46,100 nucleotides of DNA from Chiloscyllium plagiosum (lineage: Eukaryota), in contig NC_057718.1 in assembly GCF_004010195.1 (NCBI RefSeq), positions 48,357,345 through 48,403,444 of the forward strand, given 5' to 3'. The translations under genes were made by a program, and so were the position numbers. Position 1 is the stretch's first letter, and every line of letters begins with the position of its first letter. Shown here piece after piece: positions 2,759-46,100 of the stretch. The notes below the pieces were generated by a model. The model did not search any database. It saw nothing but the letters and a program-made list of their open reading frames with translations, and had not been told where the DNA came from.

Positions 2759-3607
2759 TGTACTCAAAATAAATTAGCTATAATTTTAACTGTGAACTAT
2801 TTATTATTTTCATATTGTATGAATTGTTGGCAAAGGCTGAAAACTGCCATCAATTTATACAATGTTTCTGCTGTAATTTGCTTGGGATGGACAATAAATG
2901 TTGCCTTTGCCAGTTCAATGAGACTGTCATTATGTTGGGGTATAGAGTTAAAGTACTGATACAGCATTTGGAATTATTAGAAATACAAGAGGGATTAGGT
3001 ACTCTGGGTAGTGAAACATCAGAATGAGGTGATATTTGATTATGGTTGACATGAAGAAGTTGTGAAAAAGCTGAAGAGGGAATTTCAAAAAAAAGGATTT
3101 TTAAAAAAGCAGAAAAAGATAAAGAAGGGGAGATGAATTAAAAATGGAAATAGAAATTAGAAAACGAGAATTACAATTGCAAAGGGAAAGGAAAGGAAGG
3201 CAAGAGACAGAAAGAAAGAGAGAAACATGAGTATCAGCTTTCAATGACATTTGTGTAAAAAGAAACATGAGATGCTGATGCAAAATCTGAAAAGGTAAAT
3301 CCGAGTCATAATCTAAAGTTCGGTAAAGGAATATTTAAATTTTTTAGGTCTGGACAAGGTTTGATAAAAAGGATGTGGAGGCATTCATTATGGAAAATAG
3401 CTGACAGATTATTTGGTCAAAGAGAGCCTGGGCACTGCACAAACAGAGTAAGTCAACAAGTAAAACACTGTTCAAGGAGGTTTTTAGGGATTATTGCACT
3501 GTTAAAAAAAACTACAATGGTTGCATATGAATAAGTGCAAAAGTGCATATAGGCAAAAGTGTTGAAATTTAAGGAAATATCCTGGACATGACCTATACTG
3601 ACTTTAG

Positions 3608-3819
3608 TGTCAAAAATTGTGGCTCTGGAAAAGCAAAATCAGTCAGGCAGCATCCGAGGAGCAGGAGAGTCGATGTTTCGAGCAAAAGCTGTTCGTCGAT
3701 GAACAGCTGATGCTCGAAATGTCAACTGTCCTGCTCCTTGGATGCTGCCTGACCAGCTGTGCTTTTCCAGCACCACACTTTTTGATTCTGATCTCCAGCA
3801 TCTGCAGTTCTCACTTTCT
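3608..3819 (+). mobile_element. Palindromic Penelope-derived element with 16-bp TSD
   Basis: Inverted arms centred near 3697; tail ...ccagcatctgcagttctcactttctc. TSD cctatactgactttag (3592-3607) / cctatactgattttag (3820-3835). Confidence 0.85.
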
Positions 3820-3918
3820 CCTATACTGATTTTAGAAAAGTTACATAAAGTAATTTTGACAGGTGGATACAAACATTAGGAGCTGAAACCATGTATGAAA
3901 TTCTTTTTAAATTTAACT

Positions 3919-7411: not shown

Positions 7412-7547
7412 GCTTTTATTCCTGATGAAGGGCTTTTGCCCGAAACGTCGATTTTGCCTGTCCTCGGATGCTGCCTGAATTGCTGTGCTCTTCCAGCACC
7501 ACTAATCCACAATCTGGTTTCCAGCATCTGCAGTCATTGTTTTTACC
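7412..7547 (+). mobile_element. Penelope-derived terminal repeat with intact minimal hammerhead core
   Basis: Nearly identical to 39480-39596; begins attcCTGATGAagggcttttgcccGAAAcGTC. Confidence 0.85.
7418..7453 (+). ncRNA. Minimal type I hammerhead ribozyme motif
   Basis: CUGAUGA 7422-7428, extra A, stem II GGGC-UUUU-GCCC, GAAA 7442-7445, palindromic ACGU stem III, GUC cleavage triplet 7447-7449; stem I very short. Confidence 0.7.
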
Positions 7548-9051: not shown

Positions 9052-9072
9052 NNNNNNNNNNNNNNNNNNNNN
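9052..9072. other. Assembly gap (21 N)
   Basis: Run of N characters. Confidence 0.99.
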
Positions 9073-9379: not shown

Positions 9380-9512
9380 AAATAAAAATGGAAAGAACTG
9401 CGGATGCTGTAAATCAGAAAAAAAGACAGAAACTACTGGAAAAGTTCAGTGGGTATGGCAGTATCTATGGAGAGAAATCAGAGTTAACGTTCAGGTTCAG
9501 TGATCCTTCACA
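9380..9512 (-). mobile_element. Degenerate Penelope-like terminal repeat
   Basis: aactgcggatgctg...actggaaaagttcag...ggcagtatctatggagagaaa..gagttaacgttc; same layout as the other Penelope ends. Confidence 0.6.
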
Positions 9513-26532: not shown

Positions 26533-26781
26533 TTATCACCTACAGTACTTTCCACGGTCTGCAATAACTTCTCCAAACTCCTCTGTCACTTCATTCCCCC
26601 CTTAAAACTTTCCTCTTCGAGTCAACTTTACATCTCCCCCTCTTTGGCAGCATGTCCTGTCTCCTTAAATTTCTGTGAAGTGCACTGGGATGTTTGTATA
26701 TTTTCAAACACAAAAAAAAACTTCCCTGCAAATTGTTCTAGGGAGTTAGCAGCAATATTATTAAACAATGTAGTCTCCCTG

Positions 26782-26870
26782 TTCCCGGAAAGTGCCGAAA
26801 CATTCAGCGAGTCCTGTACAAAGAAAACACAACTTCAATCGATTGGTTTAGCCTGATGCATATAAATAAG
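26782..26870 (+). promoter_or_regulatory. Putative core promoter of the C1orf115-like gene
   Basis: TTCCCGGAA (GAS/STAT, overlapping ETS core) 26782-26790, ATTGG (reverse CCAAT) 26842-26846 and TATAAAT 26861-26867, ~110 bp upstream of the ATG; local CpG enrichment. Confidence 0.5.
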
Positions 26871-26972
26871 ATAAAGCGGCCAAGGTTGAGATTACAGCAG
26901 CGCCAAAGGGCAGGTTACATTGTTTATCAGGATAGGATAGTGCAAAAATTCTACTTCCATGGAATCACCACA

Positions 26973-27386
26973 ATGACTGCGGAAAACTTAAAATCCCTGG
27001 TAAAAAGGCAGTTGCCATTCAGTGGTTTTGCCAGTTTTCAGGGTAGAAGGGGAAAATGTCATGCAATTGGAACTGACCAAGAAAACTTGCTTTCAACTGA
27101 CCAACAGTTGACGTTGGAAAACATAAGGCATTTCAAAGCTAAATTGAAAAAAGTCGCTATTCTCCCGACTGTCCAAGAGATCCAGGAGTCCGCAGATGGA
27201 CTTCAATGCGAAAGCACCGAGAAACCAGAATATGTTAAGAAGACATCAGGTTCTAAAAAAGTTCACATTGCTTTAATTCCAGACAGATATGAGCCTTTGA
27301 TCGAGTCTTTGGGAGAGAATCCGAATGAGGAGAGCAAAACGGCCAAAAAATTCAAAAGGAAGCAAAAGCTTAAAAAGTGCAAGAAG
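26973..27386 (+). CDS. C1orf115: C1orf115/RDD1 (required for drug-induced death 1, DUF4710) homologue, coding exon 1, 138 codons
   Basis: KKVHIALIPDRYEPL...KRKQKLKKCKK matches the recalled family motif RRVHFALLPERYEPL...RRKLKKYGK; begins MT (acaATG); phase-0 donor AAG|GTAAGA at 27387. Confidence 0.85.
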
Positions 27387-27974
27387 GTAAGAAAAATAGA
27401 CGTTCAAAATAATACTAAATTCGTAAGATTGTTAATTGCCGGATGGTAGAAGGTGTCTGGGCAAGTGTTTCTGCACTGACCTCTGCACACATCTCATACA
27501 CATCAATGTTATAAAGCAAAGGTAACTTTTTTTGTAGCAAGATATTGCGTACTCCAAGGCAGCCACTCCTCAAACTAATAAACTCAAAGAAAAATGATCC
27601 AATTTTATGAAGTTTGACCTCGCGGATTTTGGCAAATCTGCGCCATATCTCGCTGTCCCTCCCAGTATCTCAGCTCAGACCAGAATATCGTTCCTGAAGT
27701 ATTACGCCTAGAACTCAAACGCAATTTCCCAGATCAATATAACCGTAAGTACCCCTAATTTCCAAAGTGACCTTGACTAAACCACTTCGTTGCCTACTTC
27801 CTACCCATTCTCCCTGTGAAATATGCAAAGTTGGAAGAAAGATGTGGAGGAATGACATTATTGAATATCTCCTTAGAGAGCTAGCATGGGCAATGGGCTG
27901 ATTGGCTGCCTTCCGTAATGATTCTGCGGCTCCTGCGCAACTACTCGGAAGACGCAACCTTTTATACCAGTTTT

Positions 27975-29375: not shown

Positions 29376-31798
29376 GTCATAGAGTCATAGAGATGTACAG
29401 CATAGAAACAGACCTTTCGGTCCAACCTGTCCATATTGACCAGATATCCCAACCCAATCTAGTCCCACCTGCCAGCACACGGCCCGTATCCCTCCAAACC
29501 CTTCCTATTCATATACCCATCCAAATGCCTTTTAAATGTTGCAATTGTACCAGCCTCCACCACTTCCTCTGGCAGCTCATTCCACATACGTACCACCTTC
29601 TGTGTGAAAAAGTTGCCCCGTAGGTCTCTTTTATATGTTTCCCCTCTCACTCTAAACCTATGTCCACTAGCTCTAGGTTCCCTGACCCCATCCATGCCCC
29701 TCATAATTTTGTAAACCTCGATGAGGTCACCCCCCAGCCTCCGACACTCCAGGGAAAACAGCCCCAGCCTGTTCAGCCTCTCCCTATAGCTCAAATCCTC
29801 CAACACTGGCAACATCCTTGTAAATCTTTTCTGAACACTTTCAAGTTTCACAACATCTTTCCAATAGGAAGGAGACCAGAACTGCACGTAATATTCCAAC
29901 ACTGGCCTAACCAATGCCCTATAGAGCCACACATGACCTCCCAACTCCTGTACTCAATACTCTGACCAATAGAAAAAAGCTTACCAAACGCCTTCTTCAC
30001 TATCCTATCTACCTGCGACTTCACTGTCAAGGAGCTATGAACCTGCACTCCAAGGTCTCTTTGTTTAGCAACACTCCCTAGGACCTTACCATTAAGTGTA
30101 AGATTTGCTTTCCCAAAATGCAGCACCTCGCATTTATCTGAATTAAACTCCATCTGCTACTTCTCACCCCTTTGGCCCCCTCTGGTCAAGATCCTGTTGT
30201 AATCTGAGGTAACCTTCTTTGCTGTCCACTACACCTCCAATTTTGGTGTCATCTGCAAACTTACTAACTGTATCTTTTATGCTCGCATCCAAGTCATTTA
30301 CATAAATGACAAAACGTAGAGAGTCCAGCACCGATCCTTGTGGTACTCCACTGGTCACAGGCCTACAGTCTGAAAAACAACCCTCCACCACCACCCTCTG
30401 TCTTCTACCTTTGAGCCAGTCCTGTATCCAAATGGCTAGTTCTCCCTGTATTCCATGAGATCTAACCTTGCTAACCAGTCTCCCATGGGGAACCTTGTCG
30501 AACACCTTACTGAAATCCATATAGATCACATCTGCTACTCTGCCATCATCAATCCTCTTTGATACTTCTTCAAAAAACTCAATCAAGTTTGTAAGACATG
30601 ATTTCCCACTCACAAAGCCATGTTGACTATCCCTAATCAGTCCTTGCCTTTCCAAATACATGTACATCTAGTCCCTGAGGATTCCCTCCAACAACTTACC
30701 CACCACTGACGAAAAGCTCACTGATCTCTAGTTCCCTGGCTTTTCCTTACCACCTTTTTAAAATAGTGACACCACATTAGCCAACCTCCAGTCTTCCGGC
30801 ACCTCACCTATGACTATTGATGATACAAATATTTCAGCAGGAGGCCCAGCAATCACTTATTTAGCTTCCCACAGAGTTCTCGGGTACACCTGATCATGTC
30901 CTGGGGATTTATCCACCTTTATGCGTTTCAAGACATCCAGCACTTCCTCCTCTGTAATATGGACATTTTGCAAGATGTCACCATCTATTTCCCTACATTC
31001 TATATGTTTCATATCCTTTTCCACAGTAAATAATGATGCAAAATACTCGTTTAATATCTCCCTCATTTTCTGTGGCTCCACACAAAGGTCGCCTTGCTGA
31101 TCTTTAAGGGGCCCTATTCTCTCCCTGTTAACCTTTTGTCCTTAATGTATTTGTAAAAACCCTTTGGATTCTCCTTAATTCTATTTGCCAAAGCTATCTC
31201 ATGTCCCCTTTTTGCCCTCCTGATTTCCCCCTTATGTATACTTACTGCCTTTATACCCTTCTAAGGATTCACTCGATCTATCCTGTCTATACCTTATATA
31301 TGCTTCCTTTTTCTGAACCAAACCCTCAATTTCTTTTGTCATCCAGCATTCCCTATACCTACCAGCCTTTCCTTTCACCCAACAGCAATATACTTTCTCT
31401 GGATTCTCGTTATCTAATTTCTGAAGGCTTCCCATTTTCCAGCCGTCCCTTTACCTGCGAACATCAGTCCCCAATCTGCTTTTGAAAGTTCTTGCCTAAT
31501 ACCGTCAAAATTGGCCTTTCTCAAATTTAGAACTTCAACTTTTAGATCTGGTCTATCCTTTTCCATCACTATTTTAAAACTAATAGAATTATGGTCGTGG
31601 CCCCAAAGTGCTCCCCCACTGACACCTCAGTCACCTGCCCTCCCTTATTTCCCAAGAGTAGGTCAAGTTTTGCACCTTCCCTAGGAGGTACATCCACATA
31701 CTGAATCAGAAACTTTTCTTGTACACATTTAACAAATTCCTCTCCACCGAAACCCTTAACACCATGACAGTCTCAGTCTATGTTTGGAAAGTTAAAAT
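29376..31798 (-). mobile_element. Long CR1/HER1 LINE (endonuclease C-part + RT + intact tail), disrupted
   Basis: ORFs 29459-31435: SQHGFVSGKSCLTNL, YMDFSKVFDKVPH, GVPQGSVL, SKFADDTK; tail (tctatgac)n. Confidence 0.96.
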
Positions 31799-34514: not shown

Positions 34515-35155
34515 TTGGACTATACTAACTGGAGTTTAGAAGAGTGATTGGGGATCTCTTAGAAACTTATAAAATGCTAACAGAACTAGACAAAATAGAT
34601 AAAGAAAGGATGTTCCTGATTGGAGTTGAGGGGGGTGGTGTTTGATATGGTCAGAACCAGGGGTCACAGTTAATGGTTAGGGAGTAGGAGACAGTGAGGT
34701 CTGCAGATGCTGGAGATCAGAGTTGAGAGTGTGTTGCTGGAAAAGCACAGCAGGTCAGGCAGCATCCGATGACCAAGAAAATCGATGTTTCGGGTCGGAG
34801 CTCAATGAAGGGTTCTGGATTGAAATGTCAATTTTCCTGCTCTTCGGATGCTGCCTGACCTGCTGTGCTTTTCCAACACCACACACCCAACTGTGGTTAT
34901 GGAGAAGCCCATTTAAGATTGAGATGAGAATTTCCTCACGCAGAGAGTGGTGAGCCTGTGAAATCTCCTGCACAAAACAGTTGAAGCCAAAACATCATTG
35001 TTTTTAAGAAGGAGATAGATATGGTTCTTAAGGCTAAATGGACCAAAGGGTATGGGGTGAAAGCAGGAACAGGTACTGAGCAGGATGATCATTTGAATGA
35101 TCATATTGGGCAGACTTGAAGGGCCGAATGGCCTGCTCCTGTTTTCTATATTTCT
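34515..35155 (+). mobile_element. CR1 3' fragment interrupted by a palindromic element
   Basis: ggagtttagaagagtg...gaaacttataaaat and tail gggccgaatggcctgctcctgttttctatatttctat. Confidence 0.8.
34688..34893 (-). mobile_element. Palindromic Penelope-derived element with degenerate 14-bp TSD
   Basis: Inverted arms around ~34805. TSD tggttagggagtag (34674-34687) / tggttatggagaag (34894-34907). Confidence 0.8.
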
Positions 35156-36289: not shown

Positions 36290-37545
36290 GGAGAGTTCTT
36301 TGAGAAGGCAACAAGCAGGATAGATAAAAGGGAGCAGGGGTGTACACGTAATATATTTGAATTTTTAGAAGGCACTTGATAAGTTACCACACATCAGGCT
36401 ACTAAATAAGTTAAGAGCCCATTGTATTGGAGGTACTGTATTAATATGGATAGAGGATTGACTTATTAGTAGAAGGCAGAGGGTTGGGAACATTTTCAGG
36501 TGGACCGCAGGGATCAGTGCTGGGACCGCAATTATTTACATTATATCTTAATGATTTGGATGAGGAAAGTGACTGTATTATAGCCAAGTTGCAGATGACA
36601 AAAAAAAGGGGGAAGGCAAATGGTGAGGATGGCACGAAGAGCCTGCAGAGGGATATTGACAGGTTAAGTAAGTGGGCAAAAGCTTGGCAGCTAGAATACA
36701 GAGGAACCTGGATTATCCGGCATTCGATGATCTGAAGGTCGAATTGTCTGGCAAGATCGCAAGGTTCCAATGTTTGACTAAACTATGCTATCCAGCATTC
36801 GATTATCTGGAATTTGATTAACCAAATGAAATACTCCATGTCCGTGTCCTTCGGATAATCAGGGTTCCTCTATATAATGTGGGGAAATGTGAGGTTATAT
36901 AATATGGCAAGAACAGTCGAGGAGCTGAATTTTATTTAAATGGAGAGAGACTATAGAAAGCCACAGAACTGTGAGATTTTGGGTCCTTGCTAAAACTGTA
37001 CACTGCACTAGTCAAACCACAAGTAGAATATTGTGAACAGTTTTGGATCCTTTATTGAAGGAAAAATACACTTGCATTGGAGGCAGTCCAGAGAGACTTC
37101 AGTAAGCTGATCCCAGTCTGGAAGGGCTCTCTTTTGAGAGGGAGTTGAATAGATTTGGCCAGTATTCATTGGAATATAGAAAAATGAGAGGCAACTTTAT
37201 TAAAACATACAAGATTCTTAGAGGACTTGACAGGGTAGATGCAGAAGCATTGTTTTCCCTTGTGGGAGGGTCTAGGACTAGAGGACACAATCTCAGAATA
37301 AGGAATTCTTTCTCTCATAGCATTATGAATCTATAGAATTCTTCACCACAGACAGCTGTTGAGCTTGGGCCATTATGCACATTCAAGGCTAAAATAGGCT
37401 GGTTTCTAATAAGTAAGGGAATCAAGGATTGCAGGGAAAAGACAGGAAAATAGAGTTGGTCATTATCAGATCAGCCGTGATCTCATTGAAAGGTGAAGCA
37501 GACTTGATGGGCTGAATGGCCTCTATCTGCTCCTGTGTCTTATGG
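36290..37545 (+). mobile_element. Old CR1 RT/3' fragment containing a MITE
   Basis: PQGSVLGPQLFTLYLNDLD and RKMRGNFIKTYKILRGLDRV; tail gtgtcttatgg. Confidence 0.88.
36699..36872. mobile_element. Tc1/mariner-pogo-type MITE (174 bp) with TA TSD
   Basis: TIRs cagaggaacctggattatccg / cggataatcagggttcctcta; TA at 36697-36698 and 36873-36874; removal restores CR1 frame EYNVGKCE. Confidence 0.88.
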
Positions 37546-38670
37546 ACTAAGTTAATGCACCATCTTGACTTAGCCATATGTCGCCTCTTCTTCTTTGCAA
37601 TTACAGACATCGAGAACTCTGATCTAACTAACAGCATTATCTGGATACTTTCATCAAATGGATTGCAGTGATTGAAGAAGATGGCTCACTACTACTTATT
37701 AAATGTCAAGTAGTGTGGGACAATAAATGGTGGCCTTGCTAGCAATCTATATCAGTAATGAGAATAATTCTTTTGAAAAAGTTATTCTTCAACTGTTCAT
37801 GAATCACGTGTTGTTTCACAATTAAGAGCAATGTGTCCAATTCTGCACATCATAGTGTAAGAGGAATGTCAAGGTCTTGGAGAGGTTGAAGAGAAGACTT
37901 ACCCAGAGTAACATCACACCTGAGCAATTTAATTATTTAGAGAGACAAGAGAAAATTGAATTTTTTATATTCATTAAGTATATTAGGAGCAACTGTTTGC
38001 AATAATGGATGTTTTACTAACCAGTGATCACAGATTAATGATAATCTGTGATAGAACCTTAAGGGTGATGATGAGAATTGTTTTTTTTGTGCAGTAAGTT
38101 ATTATTTGGAATGCATTGCATGAAAGAGTGGTGAAAGCAAATTCAATAGCAAATTTCGTAAAGAATTTGAATGTATGCCTGAAATAGAAAAATGTTTTGC
38201 AGAACTAAAGGGGAAAGGCTGAGGAGTGAGGCACATTGGTGAGAAAATATTGGGGGCTATGGACATGGGCTTAGCTGGGAAAAACATAGCAAGTTGTATT
38301 ATGCATTGTGGAACTCAAAACAAGAAATCACGAGAGATCATTTGAAAATCAGTAGGTATTTCCAATGATAAACAGCTACTCATTGACAGTAGTTTGTCTA
38401 GAGGTGTAAATAACCTCCCATCTCACCAAAAACCTGATAGGTTGAAAACAAATTTGAAGCAAGCTAATTGTTGAGACAGTTTAAAAGTTTATTATCTCAC
38501 TTAAAAGACAATGGATTTAGATTTTCCCAATACCGCATTTGGAAACATGATTTGACAGTTTGGGATAGCAACCATTTTTAAGTTTTGGTCTGCATAAAAC
38601 TCTGTCTGTAAGCAACTATTACACATAAAGCTCATGAGAGAAACATGAGACAAGTATTCAGGACTGCTGT

Positions 38671-39130
38671 AGCACCCAACCCATATCCCTCCAAATCCTT
38701 CCTATTCATACACCCATCTAGATGCCTTTTAAATGTTGCAATTGTACTAGCCTCCACCACTTCCTCTGGCAGCTCATTCCATACACATATCACCCGCTGT
38801 GTGAAAAAGTTGCTCCTTAAGTCTCTTTTATATCTTTCCCCTCTCACCTTAAACCTATGCCCTCTAGTTCTGGACACCCCGACCCCAGGGAAAAGACTGT
38901 CTATTTACCCTGTCCATGCCCCTCATGATTTTATAAACCTCTACAAGGTCACCCCTCAGCCTCCAATGCTCCAGGGAAAACAGCCCCAGCCTGTTCAGCC
39001 TCTCCCTATAGCTCAAATCCTCCAACCTAGGCAACATCCTTGTAAATCTTTTCTGAACCCTTTCAAGTTTCACAACATCTTTCCGATAGGAAGGAGACTA
39101 GAATTGCACGCAATATTCCAACACTCGCCT
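38671..39130 (-). mobile_element. CR1/HER1 3' segment of a 5'-inverted insertion
   Basis: KLERVQKRFTRMLP...WNELPEEVVEA; the terminal tail is missing. Confidence 0.9.
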
Positions 39131-39383
39131 CACCTGACTAAAGAAGTTGGGGGTTTGGTTCAGAAAAAGAAGGAAGTATATGTCAGGTATAGACAAGATA
39201 GATCAAATGAATCCTTAGAAGAGTATAAAGACAGTAGTAGTAGTATAAGAGGGAAATCAGAGTGCAAAATGAGGACTTGAGATAGCTTTGGCAAATAGAG
39301 TTAAGGAGAACTCAAAGGGTTTTTACAAATACAGTAAGGACGAAAGGGTAACTAGGGAGAGAATAGGGCCACTCAAAGATCAG

Positions 39384-39596
39384 ATTCTGGATCAGTGGTG
39401 CTGGAAGAGCACAGCAATTCAGGCAGCATCCGAGGACAGACAAAATCGACGTTTCGGGCAAAAGCCCTTCATCAGGAATGGGCTTTTGCCCGAAACGTCG
39501 ATTTTGCCTGTCCTCGGATGCTGCCTGAATTGCTGTGCTCTTCCAGCACCACTGATCCAGAATCTGGTTTCCAGCATCTGCAGTCATTGTTTTTAC
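39384..39596 (+). mobile_element. Young palindromic Penelope-derived element with perfect 15-bp TSD
   Basis: Arms 39381-39467 and 39480-39566 (87 bp, one mismatch), 12-nt loop. TSD ccactcaaagatcag at 39369-39383 and 39597-39611. Confidence 0.93.
39444..39479 (-). ncRNA. Minimal hammerhead ribozyme motif
   Basis: Minus strand attcCTGATGAagggcttttgcccGAAAcGTCgatt, identical to the core at 7418-7453. Confidence 0.7.
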
Positions 39597-40583
39597 CCAC
39601 TCAAAGATCAGCAAGGCAGCCTTTGTGTGGAACCACAGGAGATGGGGGAGATACTAAATGAGTATTTTGCATCAGTGTTTAGTGTGGAATAGGACATGGA
39701 AGGTATAGAATGTAGGGAAATAGATGATGACGTCTTGAAAAATGTTCATAATACAGAGGAGGAAGTGCTGGATGTCTTGAAATGCATAAAGTGGATGAAT
39801 CCCCGAGAGCTGATCAGGTGTACCCTAGACCTTTGTGGGAAGCTAGAGAAGTGATTGCTGGGCCCCTTGCTGAGATATTTATATCATCGAAAGTCACTGG
39901 TGAGGTGCCGGAAGACTGGAGGTTGGTTAACGTGGTGCCGCTATTTAAGAAAGGTGGTAAAGACAAGCCAGGGAAGTATAGACCAGTGACCCTGACGTCG
40001 GTGGTGGGCAAGTTGTTGGAAGTTGTTGAGGGACAGGGATGTATATGTATTTGGAAAGGCAAGGACTGATTAGGGATAGTCAACATGGCTTTGTGTGTGT
40101 GAAATCATGTCTCACAAACTTGATTGAGTTTTTTGAAGAGGTAACAAAGAGGATTGATGAGGGCAGAACAGTGGACTTGATCGATATGAACCTCAGTAAG
40201 GCATTCGACAAGGTTCCCCATGGGGAACTGGATAATAAGGTTAGATCTCACGGAATACAGAGAGAACTAGCCATTTGGATATAGAACTGGCTCAAAGGTA
40301 GAAGACAGAGGGTGGTGATGGAGGGTTGTTTTTCAGACTGGAAGCCTGTAACCAGTGGAGTGCCACAAGGACCGGAACTGGGTCCATTACTTTTCGTCAT
40401 TTATATAAATGATTTGGATGTGAGCATAAGAGGTATAGTTAGTAAGTTTGCAGATGACACCAAAATTGGAGGTGTAGTGGACAGCAAAGAAAGTTACTTC
40501 GGATTACAATGGGATCTTGATTAGATGGGCCAATGGGCTGAGAAGTGGCAGATGGAGTTTAATTTAGATAAATGTGAGGATGT

Positions 40584-40795
40584 AGGATGTATACATTTAA
40601 TAGTGAGGTCCTGGGGAGTGTTGCGGAACAAAGAGACCTTGGAGTGCAGGTTCATAGCTCCTTGAAAGGATAAATGTGAGGTGCTGCATTTTGCGAAAGC
40701 AAATCTTAGCAGGATGTATACATTTAATAGTGAGGTCCTGGGGAGTGTTGCGGAACAAAGAGACCTTGGAGTGCAGGTTCATAGCTCCTTGAAAG
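40584..40795 (+). repeat. 85-bp perfect direct duplication inside CR1
   Basis: 40584-40668 = 40711-40795; gataaatgtgagg is also duplicated (40567-40579, 40669-40681). Confidence 0.93.
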
Positions 40796-40869
40796 TGGAG
40801 TCGCAGATAGATAGGATAACGAAGAAGGCGTTTGGCATGCTTTCCTTTATTGGTCAGAGTATTGAGACT

Positions 40870-44100: not shown

Positions 44101-45499
44101 GCAGACAAGGGCATAAATCTGTGTTGCTGATTATTTGTTTAAACATAACCATTTGAAAATTAAAAGAGGAACTACAAAAGTTCTAAATTAAATTCATGAT
44201 TCATGAATCTTCCTAAGGGCTCACTTGGTGTGGTCATGACATCAGACATTAGATAGATCTTTTAAGTGCCTGCATGTGCACAGCTAGCTAAGTGGCTTTC
44301 TTGTGTTGTATAATCTATTAGAAAAAGACACTTATAGCCCTTTAAGGTTACTGGCATGAAAAGTCAGCAGTTAACCAGTGCAGAATTTAACGCAGAATGA
44401 TCATGCAGAATACAAGCTACTCCCAGCAAATTGGTTAGAAAAGTGGGAGGACAACTTTGCTTCTATAGTTCTGAAAATCATCAAAACCTTTAACTTCTGA
44501 AAATTAGGAAGTCTCCTGGCAACCAAAAGACAACAGATGAATCAACCATTTTACATCCATCGAATTGCAATTCATAATCTGAATGTAATTGCCTGAAGTC
44601 AAACTTGACCAAACTTGGTCACATTTTATCTCTGTGCCTGTTAAATATATCATAATTACATCTAGTTTTCAATATTATAGCAAGTATCAATGTGAAAGCA
44701 GGTGTGACATGTATATTTCAATGCTAGAGAATCTTTGTGAAGCATATGCACTGACATTGTAGTAGTTAACTATGTGACTGACCTTCAAACTCTATAATTA
44801 CATAATGCTGATTGATTCTAATTTAAAATTAACTGACTAGTTGGAACTTTGAATCTTCACACATCAGCAAAATATTATTAACAACAGGCAAGGAATACAA
44901 ATGATAACATGAATTGATTTTGTAATGTTCTTAACACTTTTTCACAATAGTTAGTTTGACATATGCCCTTCTATAAATTAAATGCATTGATGACACTAAT
45001 GTTTTGCTTCACTATTGATTTCTTTTGTAACTGGAAAGAGCATTTCAAATATTTTCGTGATCTGAAGGTATTGTTGATAAACAATAAACCGTGGCCTTTG
45101 TGCTTGCTAACCCTATCTGATGCATTTAAAGTGAGGTTGCCATGCCAACTTTAGAATAGGGCCATCATTCAAGTCTTTTCAGATGCTAAAGACTTTCTAA
45201 TATCTATCCAGGGTGAACCTGTTCAGGGTTGGGTTGGAGCTCACTTTGCATTAGCCTAAATTCAGACCTTGCCAAAGTTTCCAGCATCAATGTAATAATA
45301 ATTTGGTCATGTTTCTGGCCTCAGAAATTTGCAGCACTTCCAGATCCAAAGAAGAGTGGTATTGGACTCAAACATTAATTTTGTTTCTGTCTCCATAGAT
45401 GTGCATAATTATATTTGCAGATACAATCTATTTTGATCAAAAAGTGCTCAATCTGCAGGTAGTCAATCCATGTGATATTTTATAAATTCTTACTTTGCA

Positions 45500-45866
45500 A
45501 TTAGAACCAGTCTGACTCAAGACAGATTCTAACCTCACACCTTGAATGCGTTGTCTGAGCTGAGATGTCACCTTTTTTTATAAAACCTTAAGTTATCTCG
45601 AGAATGTGACTTAAAGAAGTTCTGGGATGTACATGTTAATGAACCAAAATCTGCAACTCATTCTAAAAGATGAAAGACTTAACAGCAATCTAGATTTTTT
45701 TCAATATATCATTTCAGTTACATGACACTGTAATCTTTTGCTAAAAATTGCGTCTTGTGATCCTGCTCCACAACCACCTGATGAAGGAGCAGCACTCCGA
45801 AAGCTACTACTTCCAAATAAACCTGTTGGACTATAACTTGGTGTTGTCTGATTTTTCACTTTGTCC
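45500..45866 (+). mobile_element. Penelope-like 3' UTR/pseudo-LTR of a second family with hammerhead core
   Basis: cacCTGATGAaGGAGcagcaCTCCGAAAgcta (45775-45806) followed by aaataaacctgttggactataac. Confidence 0.7.
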
Positions 45867-45867
45867 A

Positions 45868-46100
45868 AGAATGTAGGGAGGCTGTGGAGAAGGTAGTACT
45901 GACAGGGAATACTTGCGGACACAGAGATAGGTTCAAGTGTGTATATTTCAATGCAAGGAGTATCAGAAATAAGGTGGGTGAACTTAAGGCATGGATTGGT
46001 ACTTGGGGCTACGATGTTGTGGCCATCACAGAAACGTGGATAGAAGAGGGACAGGAATGGTTGTTGGAGGTTCCTGGTTACAGATGTTTCAGTAAGATTA
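45868..46100 (+). mobile_element. Start of CR1 ORF2 (AP-endonuclease), runs off the window
   Basis: Uninterrupted FKCVYFNARSIRNKVGELKAWIGTWGYDVVAITETWIEEG...PGYRCFSK. Confidence 0.92.

What the first reader, a model, noticed from the sequence alone, without database searches (positions are those of the whole stretch)
39369..39611. Young hairpin retroelement: 87-bp palindrome, hammerhead core and perfect 15-bp TSD
Seen: a 213-bp insert splits a CR1, with 87-bp inverted arms (one mismatch), a 12-nt loop, a 30-bp unique tail and a perfect TSD ccactcaaagatcag. The fold-back point falls in a hammerhead core: complete on the minus strand of the left arm, lacking CUGAUGA on the right arm. Known: Penelope-like elements (PLEs) carry minimal hammerheads in their pseudo-LTRs and often have inverted 5' ends. 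Inference: this is a recently mobilised, non-coding, ribozyme-bearing PLE derivative.
Basis: partly seen in the sequence, partly recalled or inferred. Interest (0 to 1): 0.75.

Follow-up and report, generated by a model that had tools for sequence, protein, structure and literature searches.

The report
Head-to-head Penelope retroelement end insertion
This is a real, fairly recent insertion of two cut-down, mirror-image copies of the tail end of a very abundant Penelope-like jumping gene, laid down in a pattern already described for that class, so it is a clean example rather than a new kind of element.

Summary
The '12-nt loop' is not a loop but the extra 5' end of the inverted copy; it carries the CUGAUGA box of a minimal hammerhead that matches the published Penelope-like (PLE) consensus. 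The window holds three more copies (one 98% identical single arm, two older palindromes), and public runs of this species and a relative show a hugely abundant family with a fixed 3' end and varied inversion points. Inverted 5'-truncated copy + 30-40-nt tail on one arm + variable duplication is the published insertion pattern of endonuclease-bearing PLEs. Most likely this is a doubly 5'-truncated PLE-end insertion, built at integration, not a hairpin element that copies itself as a unit. The coding partner was not found, age relative to the species split is undated, and the hammerhead is locked in the hairpin here. The scan has reported this family repeatedly on other DNA of the same genome. 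Ordinary.

The parts
39369..39383 (+). Left target-site duplicate (15 nt); its last 3 nt also pair as the outer end of the inverted arm (microhomology)
   Evidence: single in paralogous CR1; carries a base private to this CR1 copy, present in both duplicates
39381..39479 (-). Inverted, tail-less copy of the element's end, reading on the minus strand from just 5' of the hammerhead core to the internal start point 30 nt before the 3' end
   Evidence: 97% identical over 99 nt to the single-arm copy at 7418-7516
39448..39475 (-). Complete minimal type I hammerhead core: CUGAUGA (C3 at 39475), bulged A, 4-bp helix II with 4-nt loop, GAAA, palindromic helix III remnant, predicted cleavage after 39448; helix I only 2 contiguous pairs
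   Evidence: descriptor scan; matches published consensus in PMC4209133 supplement Fig. S3
39468..39479 (.). 12-nt centre: the overhang by which the inverted copy is longer at its 5' end than the direct copy; holds the CUGAUGA box on the minus strand; can form a 3-bp mini-stem
39480..39566 (+). Direct copy, 5'-truncated at the first base of helix II (no CUGAUGA)
   Evidence: 115 of 117 nt identical to 7430-7546 together with the tail
39567..39597 (+). 30-nt PLE-type 'tail', present on the direct arm only; the family's 3' end falls at 39597, one base into the right duplicate
   Evidence: loose ends pile at 39597 in 4 of 4 runs (206, 140, 186 contigs; 92 reads; agreement 0.35-0.38)
39597..39611 (+). 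Right target-site duplicate (15 nt)
39135..40866 (+). Host CR1 (LINE) fragment split by the insert; 85-87% identical to the paralogue at 29953-31341, whose ORF piece hits Pfam RVT_1
7418..7547 (+). Same young subfamily, single arm with tail, complete core (C3 at 7422), no inverted arm, no duplicate of 6 nt or more
3592..3835 (+). Older palindromic copy with tail, arms 74 of 92 identical, 16-nt duplicate (15 of 16), centre inside the CUGAUGA box
34672..34904 (-). Older palindromic copy with tail, arms 65 of 82 identical, decayed duplicate (10 of 13), centre at the CUGAUGA box

Best explanation
An insertion of the 3' (pLTR) end of an endonuclease-bearing Penelope-like element, truncated on both arms and joined head to head at integration. 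Shown: 15-nt duplication of a single CR1 site, inverted tail-less arm, direct arm with 30-nt tail, minimal hammerhead at the junction, large family with fixed 3' end. Inferred mechanism: the element's GIY-YIG nuclease cuts both strands 15 nt apart; one 3'-OH primes reverse transcription at the distal start site (tail end), the other at the proximal site 30 nt upstream (3-nt microhomology with the target); each cDNA copies uncleaved sense RNA past the hammerhead cleavage site and stops at or just 5' of the core; the two cDNA ends are joined (3-nt microhomology available in the centre) and filled in. The palindrome is thus a scar of integration; the copy is non-coding, dead, and its hammerhead is sequestered in the hairpin.
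For: Architecture equals the published PLE pattern: inverted 5'-truncated copy, 30-40-bp tail at one end only (PMC8557442 passages), 31-bp tail, 8-10-bp duplications and palindromes at head-to-head junctions (PMC3846280 passages and Discussion). In vitro an anole PLE cuts and extends both strands, starts at two sites separated by the tail, and uses uncleaved RNA (PMC11167929 main text). Here 3 of 3 palindromic copies in the window begin the inverted arm at the same internal position, about 30 nt before the 3' end, and carry the tail on the other arm only. All arms run through the predicted cleavage site. Centres differ: three different centres in the window, 7 of the 15 joints shown (1,470 more not shown) link two arms, 5 of these with one arm ending at 39474-39479 and the other starting at 39552-39572, 2 with both arms ending 3' of the hammerhead. 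A 98% identical copy has no inverted arm. Loose ends at 39479 (69 contigs in X5, 134 reads in X21) share their first 8 consensus letters between two runs, so some copies run on upstream into a longer element.
Against: No RT/GIY-YIG ORF was linked to this terminus: none in the window (15 of 73 ORFs scanned against Pfam), no locus in microbial/viral collections, no protein hit. Some junctions have summed depths far above single copy (39476-39552: 1,687 in X5; 39412-39525: 444 in X1 and 1,039 in X10, versus about 16 for the unique flank), so certain palindromes have been amplified as units by some route. The three window palindromes belong to different subfamilies, so their different centres are weak evidence on their own. 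The target here is not AT-rich, unlike the preference reported in vitro. The two-primer join is inferred; no intermediate is seen.
Confidence: 0.78

Rival explanations
1. Same PLE origin, but the palindrome comes from fold-back self-priming (on an antisense template, as proposed in PMC3846280) or snap-back of one cDNA, not from two separately primed cDNAs.
For: Arms are 86 of 87 identical; the centre can form a 3-bp stem with a 5-nt loop abutting the arms; the older copy at 3619 has a gapless palindromic centre; this model is published.
Against: Each arm holds sequence the other lacks (12 nt at the centre on one, the 30-nt tail on the other), so one snap-back cannot template both; the inverted arm starts at a fixed internal site in 3 of 3 copies, which matches the second start site measured in vitro.
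Confidence: 0.1
2. A dedicated non-autonomous hairpin element: a palindromic master locus is transcribed and reinserted whole by a PLE in trans.
For: A few arm-to-arm junctions have depths of hundreds to over a thousand and recur in two runs or two species. Non-autonomous PLE derivatives are known.
Against: This copy's own centre was not seen as a recurrent joint among those shown; many different centres exist; a near-identical single-arm copy exists; an 87-bp RNA hairpin would hide both start sites and the hammerhead.
Confidence: 0.08
3. Non-LTR retrozyme or SINE unrelated to PLE termini.
For: Short, non-coding, hammerhead-bearing, duplications longer than 4 bp.
Against: No head-to-tail tandem, only one complete core, minimal rather than canonical hammerhead, no tRNA-like head found, no poly(A); tail-on-one-arm is PLE-specific.
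Confidence: 0.02
4. Assembly chimera or post-insertion DNA fold-back.
For: No listed contig spans this locus's junctions (contigs break in repeats).
Against: Perfect duplication of a site with a copy-private base; arms differ at one site; two older copies with 20%-diverged arms have the same layout and their own duplications; head-to-head joints occur in 3 of 3 independent DNA runs.
Confidence: 0.02

Closest known systems
Complex insertions of endonuclease-bearing Penelope-like elements: inverted pLTR plus 'tail' (Arkhipova et al. 2013, PMC3846280; Craig et al. 2021, PMC8557442)
   Same: Head-to-head inverted 5'-truncated copy, about 30-nt tail on one arm only, variable target duplication, palindromic junction.
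   Different: Both arms are cut down to about 100 nt with no ORF; duplication 15 nt against 8-10 nt in the rotifer examples read; family far more abundant.
[quoted passage not shown]
   Same: CUGANGA, one bulged base, G-C opening helix II, GAAA, palindromic helix III remnant, UH; that paper also notes pairs of motifs 100-700 bp apart on opposite strands and mostly solo truncated copies.
   Different: No cartilaginous fish among the motifs listed in its Fig. S3 or found by term search of the one readable supplement; helix I is only 2 contiguous pairs; here the two arms meet inside the motif.
Poseidon PAc of Anolis (Frangieh et al. 2024, PMC11167929)
   Same: Two reverse-transcription start sites separated by the tail; both strands cut and extended; uncleaved RNA is the template.
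   Different: In PAc the ORF starts inside the hammerhead at stem II; here no ATG lies at that position and the clade of the partner is untested.
Non-LTR retrozymes (Cervera and De la Pena 2020, PMC7229834; Li et al. 2026 preprint 10.64898/2026.07.22.740005)
   Same: Non-coding, type I hammerhead, PLE-pLTR related.
   Different: Retrozymes are head-to-tail tandem arrays with two or more complete hammerheads; this is head-to-head with one.

Membership tests
Endonuclease-bearing Penelope-like elements | Terminus linked to an ORF with PLE-clade RT and GIY-YIG endonuclease | tested here: inconclusive
   No such ORF in the window; no genome held; collection scans and one protein search blank; shared upstream continuation exists but only 30 mixed letters are shown
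Endonuclease-bearing Penelope-like elements | Minimal type I hammerhead in the pLTR | tested here: met
Endonuclease-bearing Penelope-like elements | Inverted 5'-truncated copy joined head to head | tested here: met
   3 of 4 full-length family copies in the window
Endonuclease-bearing Penelope-like elements | 30-40-nt tail on one end only, fixed 3' end, no poly(A) | tested here: met
   30 nt; 3 of 3 palindromes; pile of loose ends at 39597
Endonuclease-bearing Penelope-like elements | Variable target-site duplication, sometimes absent | tested here: met
   15 nt, 16 nt, about 13 nt decayed, none
Active hammerhead ribozyme | Self-cleavage of the RNA | not testable with these tools
   Folding cost +31.6 kcal/mol in this copy; no pile of molecule ends listed in one poly(A) single-cell run of which about 2 in 100 was read, an insensitive test
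Non-LTR retrozymes | Head-to-tail tandem units, two or more with complete hammerheads | tested here: not met
MITE / fold-back DNA transposon | Inverted repeats at both termini with a short fixed duplication | tested here: not met
   30-nt tail lies outside the right arm; duplications vary; single-arm copy exists
tRNA-derived SINE | tRNA-like Pol III head | tested here: not met
   ARAGORN 0 genes (a weak test for decayed heads); the insert is fully accounted for by two copies of one terminus

The most novel reading that the evidence does not exclude
The hammerhead region itself sets where PLE cDNA synthesis ends: two template RNAs pair through the palindromic helix III (the dimeric hammerhead), are presented to the two cut strands by a dimeric RT, and both cDNAs stop at the paired core. 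The minimal hammerhead would then serve as a template-pairing and termination device rather than (only) a nuclease, explaining head-to-head PLE insertions. In the window all 7 arm 5' ends of the 4 copies lie within about 13 nt around CUGAUGA, upstream of the cleavage site; but one search also shows palindromes with one or both arms ending well 3' of the core, and a transcript start just upstream of the core explains the clustering as well.
Probability: 0.12. Interest if true: 0.6.

Novelty: new member of a known kind. Interest (0 to 1): 0.2.

Why it matters
As a single locus, little: it is one dead copy among very many. As material, the family is useful: PLE integration is still poorly understood, and thousands of short, young head-to-head insertions with clean duplications give a natural record of cut stagger, the two priming sites and where cDNAs stop. 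If the stop point proved to be set by the hammerhead, it would give the minimal PLE ribozyme a role that current in vitro work has not found.

Tried and rejected
Rfam: no match at gathering level in the window; at E up to 10 only generic hairpin miRNA models far below their cut-offs, rejected as hairpin artefacts. No own genome held, so no genome-wide tabulation. Exact-pattern scans of metagenome, viral (28, 44) and prokaryotic genome contigs (45): 0 loci each, uninformative for an animal repeat. Six-frame motif search for PLE RT/GIY-YIG words found nothing convincing; Pfam on 15 of the 73 ORFs of 90 aa or more gave only RVT_1 in a CR1 and RDD1. The open 43-codon frame across the single-arm copy was tried as a possible PLE ORF start against longer proteins: 2 candidates, none at E 0.01; an open stretch this short is expected by chance. 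Run search listed no RNA holder on record. Laying runs could not genotype this locus: the 228-232-nt 'skip' joints have depths of 29-371 and carry the CR1 consensus base, so they come from paralogous CR1 copies, not from an empty allele. RNA run X21 covers the element on both strands but 93 in 100 laid reads run on into other sequence and the unique flank has depth 0-0.22, so transcription of this copy is not shown. Literature searches for a description of this shark family listed none; subscription papers, Repbase and Dfam were not searchable, one supplement of PMC4209133 and the preprint's supplements could not be seen. Look-up of earlier findings by sequence gave nothing.

Full report
Observation. 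Every stated measurement is right. The 15-mer is repeated exactly at 39369-39383 and 39597-39611, the insert is 213 nt, the arms are 39381-39467 and 39480-39566 with one mismatch at 39440, the centre is 12 nt and the tail 30 nt. A 15-nt match at these ends has a chance of about 2e-7. Taking out the insert and one duplicate gives a sequence collinear with the paralogous CR1 at 30940-31240, with the site once and the frame open; a piece of that paralogue hits Pfam RVT_1. Both duplicates carry a base that differs from the paralogue and from the CR1 consensus seen in three DNA runs (loose ends before 39600), so the duplication was made from this CR1 copy after it had begun to decay.

The hammerhead. 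A descriptor scan of both strands finds three minimal type I cores in the window (C3 at 7422 +, 39475 -, 45778 +) against 0.03 per simulated window. The motif at 39475 agrees with the consensus printed in Fig. S3 of PMC4209133 (supplement parts 1-2 read; main text parts 1-2 of 4). Helix I has only two contiguous pairs. The 12-nt centre is exactly the 5' helix I strand, the CUGAUGA box and the bulged base of the inverted copy; it equals the first 12 nt of the single-arm copy at 7418. The direct arm starts at helix II. In a transcript through this locus the core is buried: freeing it costs 31.6 kcal/mol, against 3.1 in the single-arm copy. Rfam has no match.

The family. BLAST and a profile search find four full copies in the window and one distant relative at 9393-9492: this one; 7418-7547, 115 of 117 nt identical, single arm, no duplication of 6 nt or more; and two older palindromes at 3606-3822 and 34683-34892 with arms 74 of 92 and 65 of 82 identical and duplications of 15 of 16 and 10 of 13. 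In 3 of 3 palindromes the inverted arm starts at the same internal position about 30 nt before the 3' end and the tail is on the other arm. Of 24 runs listed I laid 4 on 37400-40400. Organism A matches the unique flank with 3 differences in 1,197 and 919 nt (the window's species); organism B differs at 31 of 1,203. In all three DNA runs the element's bins have summed depth about 2-3 million against 4-16 for the single-copy contig; the tool warns this is no copy number, but the family is clearly very large in both species. Loose ends pile at 39597 in 4 of 4 runs with low agreement (0.35-0.38) and AT-rich consensus: a fixed 3' end followed by many different flanks. Loose ends also pile at 39479 (69 contigs in X5, 134 reads in X21; agreement 0.41-0.46; same first 8 letters), i.e. 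a mixture of truncation there and continuation into a longer element. Of the 15 joints shown (1,470 not shown), 7 link two arms: 5 have one arm ending at 39474-39479 and the other starting at 39552-39572, and 2 have both arms ending 3' of the hammerhead. So inversion points vary and do not always fall in the core. Some of these joints have high depth (up to 1,687), which shows that a few palindromes were amplified as units.

Age. One difference in 102 paired sites gives a 95% range of 0.02-5.5% pairwise divergence; the A-B flank divergence is 2.6%, and one or no difference would be seen with P = 0.26 if the insertion were as old as that split. It is young against the older copies and the host CR1 (85-87% to its paralogue), but 'recently mobilised' is not dated. 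No listed contig spans the junctions and the skip joints come from paralogous CR1 copies, so presence or absence in other individuals is open.

What is known. Craig et al. 2021 (PMC8557442, passages) list an inverted 5'-truncated copy at the 5' end and a 30-40-bp tail at one end as general features of PLE insertions. Arkhipova et al. 2013 (PMC3846280, passages and Discussion) describe inverted pLTRs with a 31-bp tail, 8-10-bp duplications and palindromes at head-to-head junctions, and propose self-priming on an antisense template. Frangieh et al. 2024 (PMC11167929, parts 1-2 of 4) show in vitro that a Poseidon protein cuts and extends both strands, starts at two sites that bound the tail, and uses uncleaved RNA. 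Retrozymes are tandem (PMC7229834 passages; preprint 10.64898/2026.07.22.740005 parts 1-3 of 5). The curation guide PMC8969392 (passages) says the same of PLE ends. Six searches listed no paper on this particular family; repeat databases and most subscription papers were out of reach.

Mechanism. Most likely (0.78) a staggered double cut 15 nt apart, priming of one strand at the tail end (1-nt overlap with the target) and of the other at the internal site (3-nt overlap), copying of uncleaved RNA through the cleavage site, stops 12 nt apart at the 5' side of the core, and end joining. The cut, priming and join are inferred from the sequence and from the anole work; only the product is shown. 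Each arm has sequence the other lacks, which a single snap-back cannot give. The missing piece for membership is the coding partner: none in the window, no genome, blanks. That the organism is a shark rests on my recall of such repeats and on the scan's earlier notes, not on a test here.

Earlier findings. My reading was filed before looking. Notes on other DNA of the same genome reach the same conclusion many times; they are not independent support. One of them suggested the transcript-start explanation for clustered 5' ends, which I list as the alternative to the novel case and did not test.

Verdict. Real, well observed, and ordinary: a new example of the known head-to-head PLE end insertion. 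Interest 0.2; the reading that the hammerhead sets the stop and pairing point has probability about 0.12 and would merit about 0.6.

Noticed in passing
window 45400-45880 (+), C3 at 45778: A second, unrelated repeat end with a minimal hammerhead-like core (4-bp helix II, no contiguous helix I pair); probably another PLE family. No ORF seen upstream.
   Followed up: partly
window 9393-9492 (-): Distant relative of the family (profile E 3.8e-6), single arm, decayed.
   Followed up: partly
window 40567-40795: Inside the host CR1, an 85-nt stretch is duplicated at 100% identity with a 13-nt repeat between, like a tandem duplication whose first copy lost about 29 nt; recent event or assembly slip.
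   Followed up: no
window 38671-39134 (-) and 39135-40866 (+): The host CR1 is in two non-overlapping pieces of opposite orientation that are adjacent in the paralogue (29474-29912 and 29953-31341), as in twin-primed 5' inversion; no flanking duplication longer than 7 nt was found.
   Followed up: partly
window 26742-27449 (+): 235-codon open frame with a Pfam RDD1 hit (E 7.6e-10): probably an exon of a host gene, about 12 kb from the insert.
   Followed up: partly
joints on window 39412-39525 and 39476-39552: Some arm-to-arm junctions have depths of hundreds to over a thousand and recur across runs or species: particular palindromes have been amplified as units, by an unknown route.
   Followed up: no
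window 9052-9072: Run of 21 N (assembly gap).
   Followed up: no
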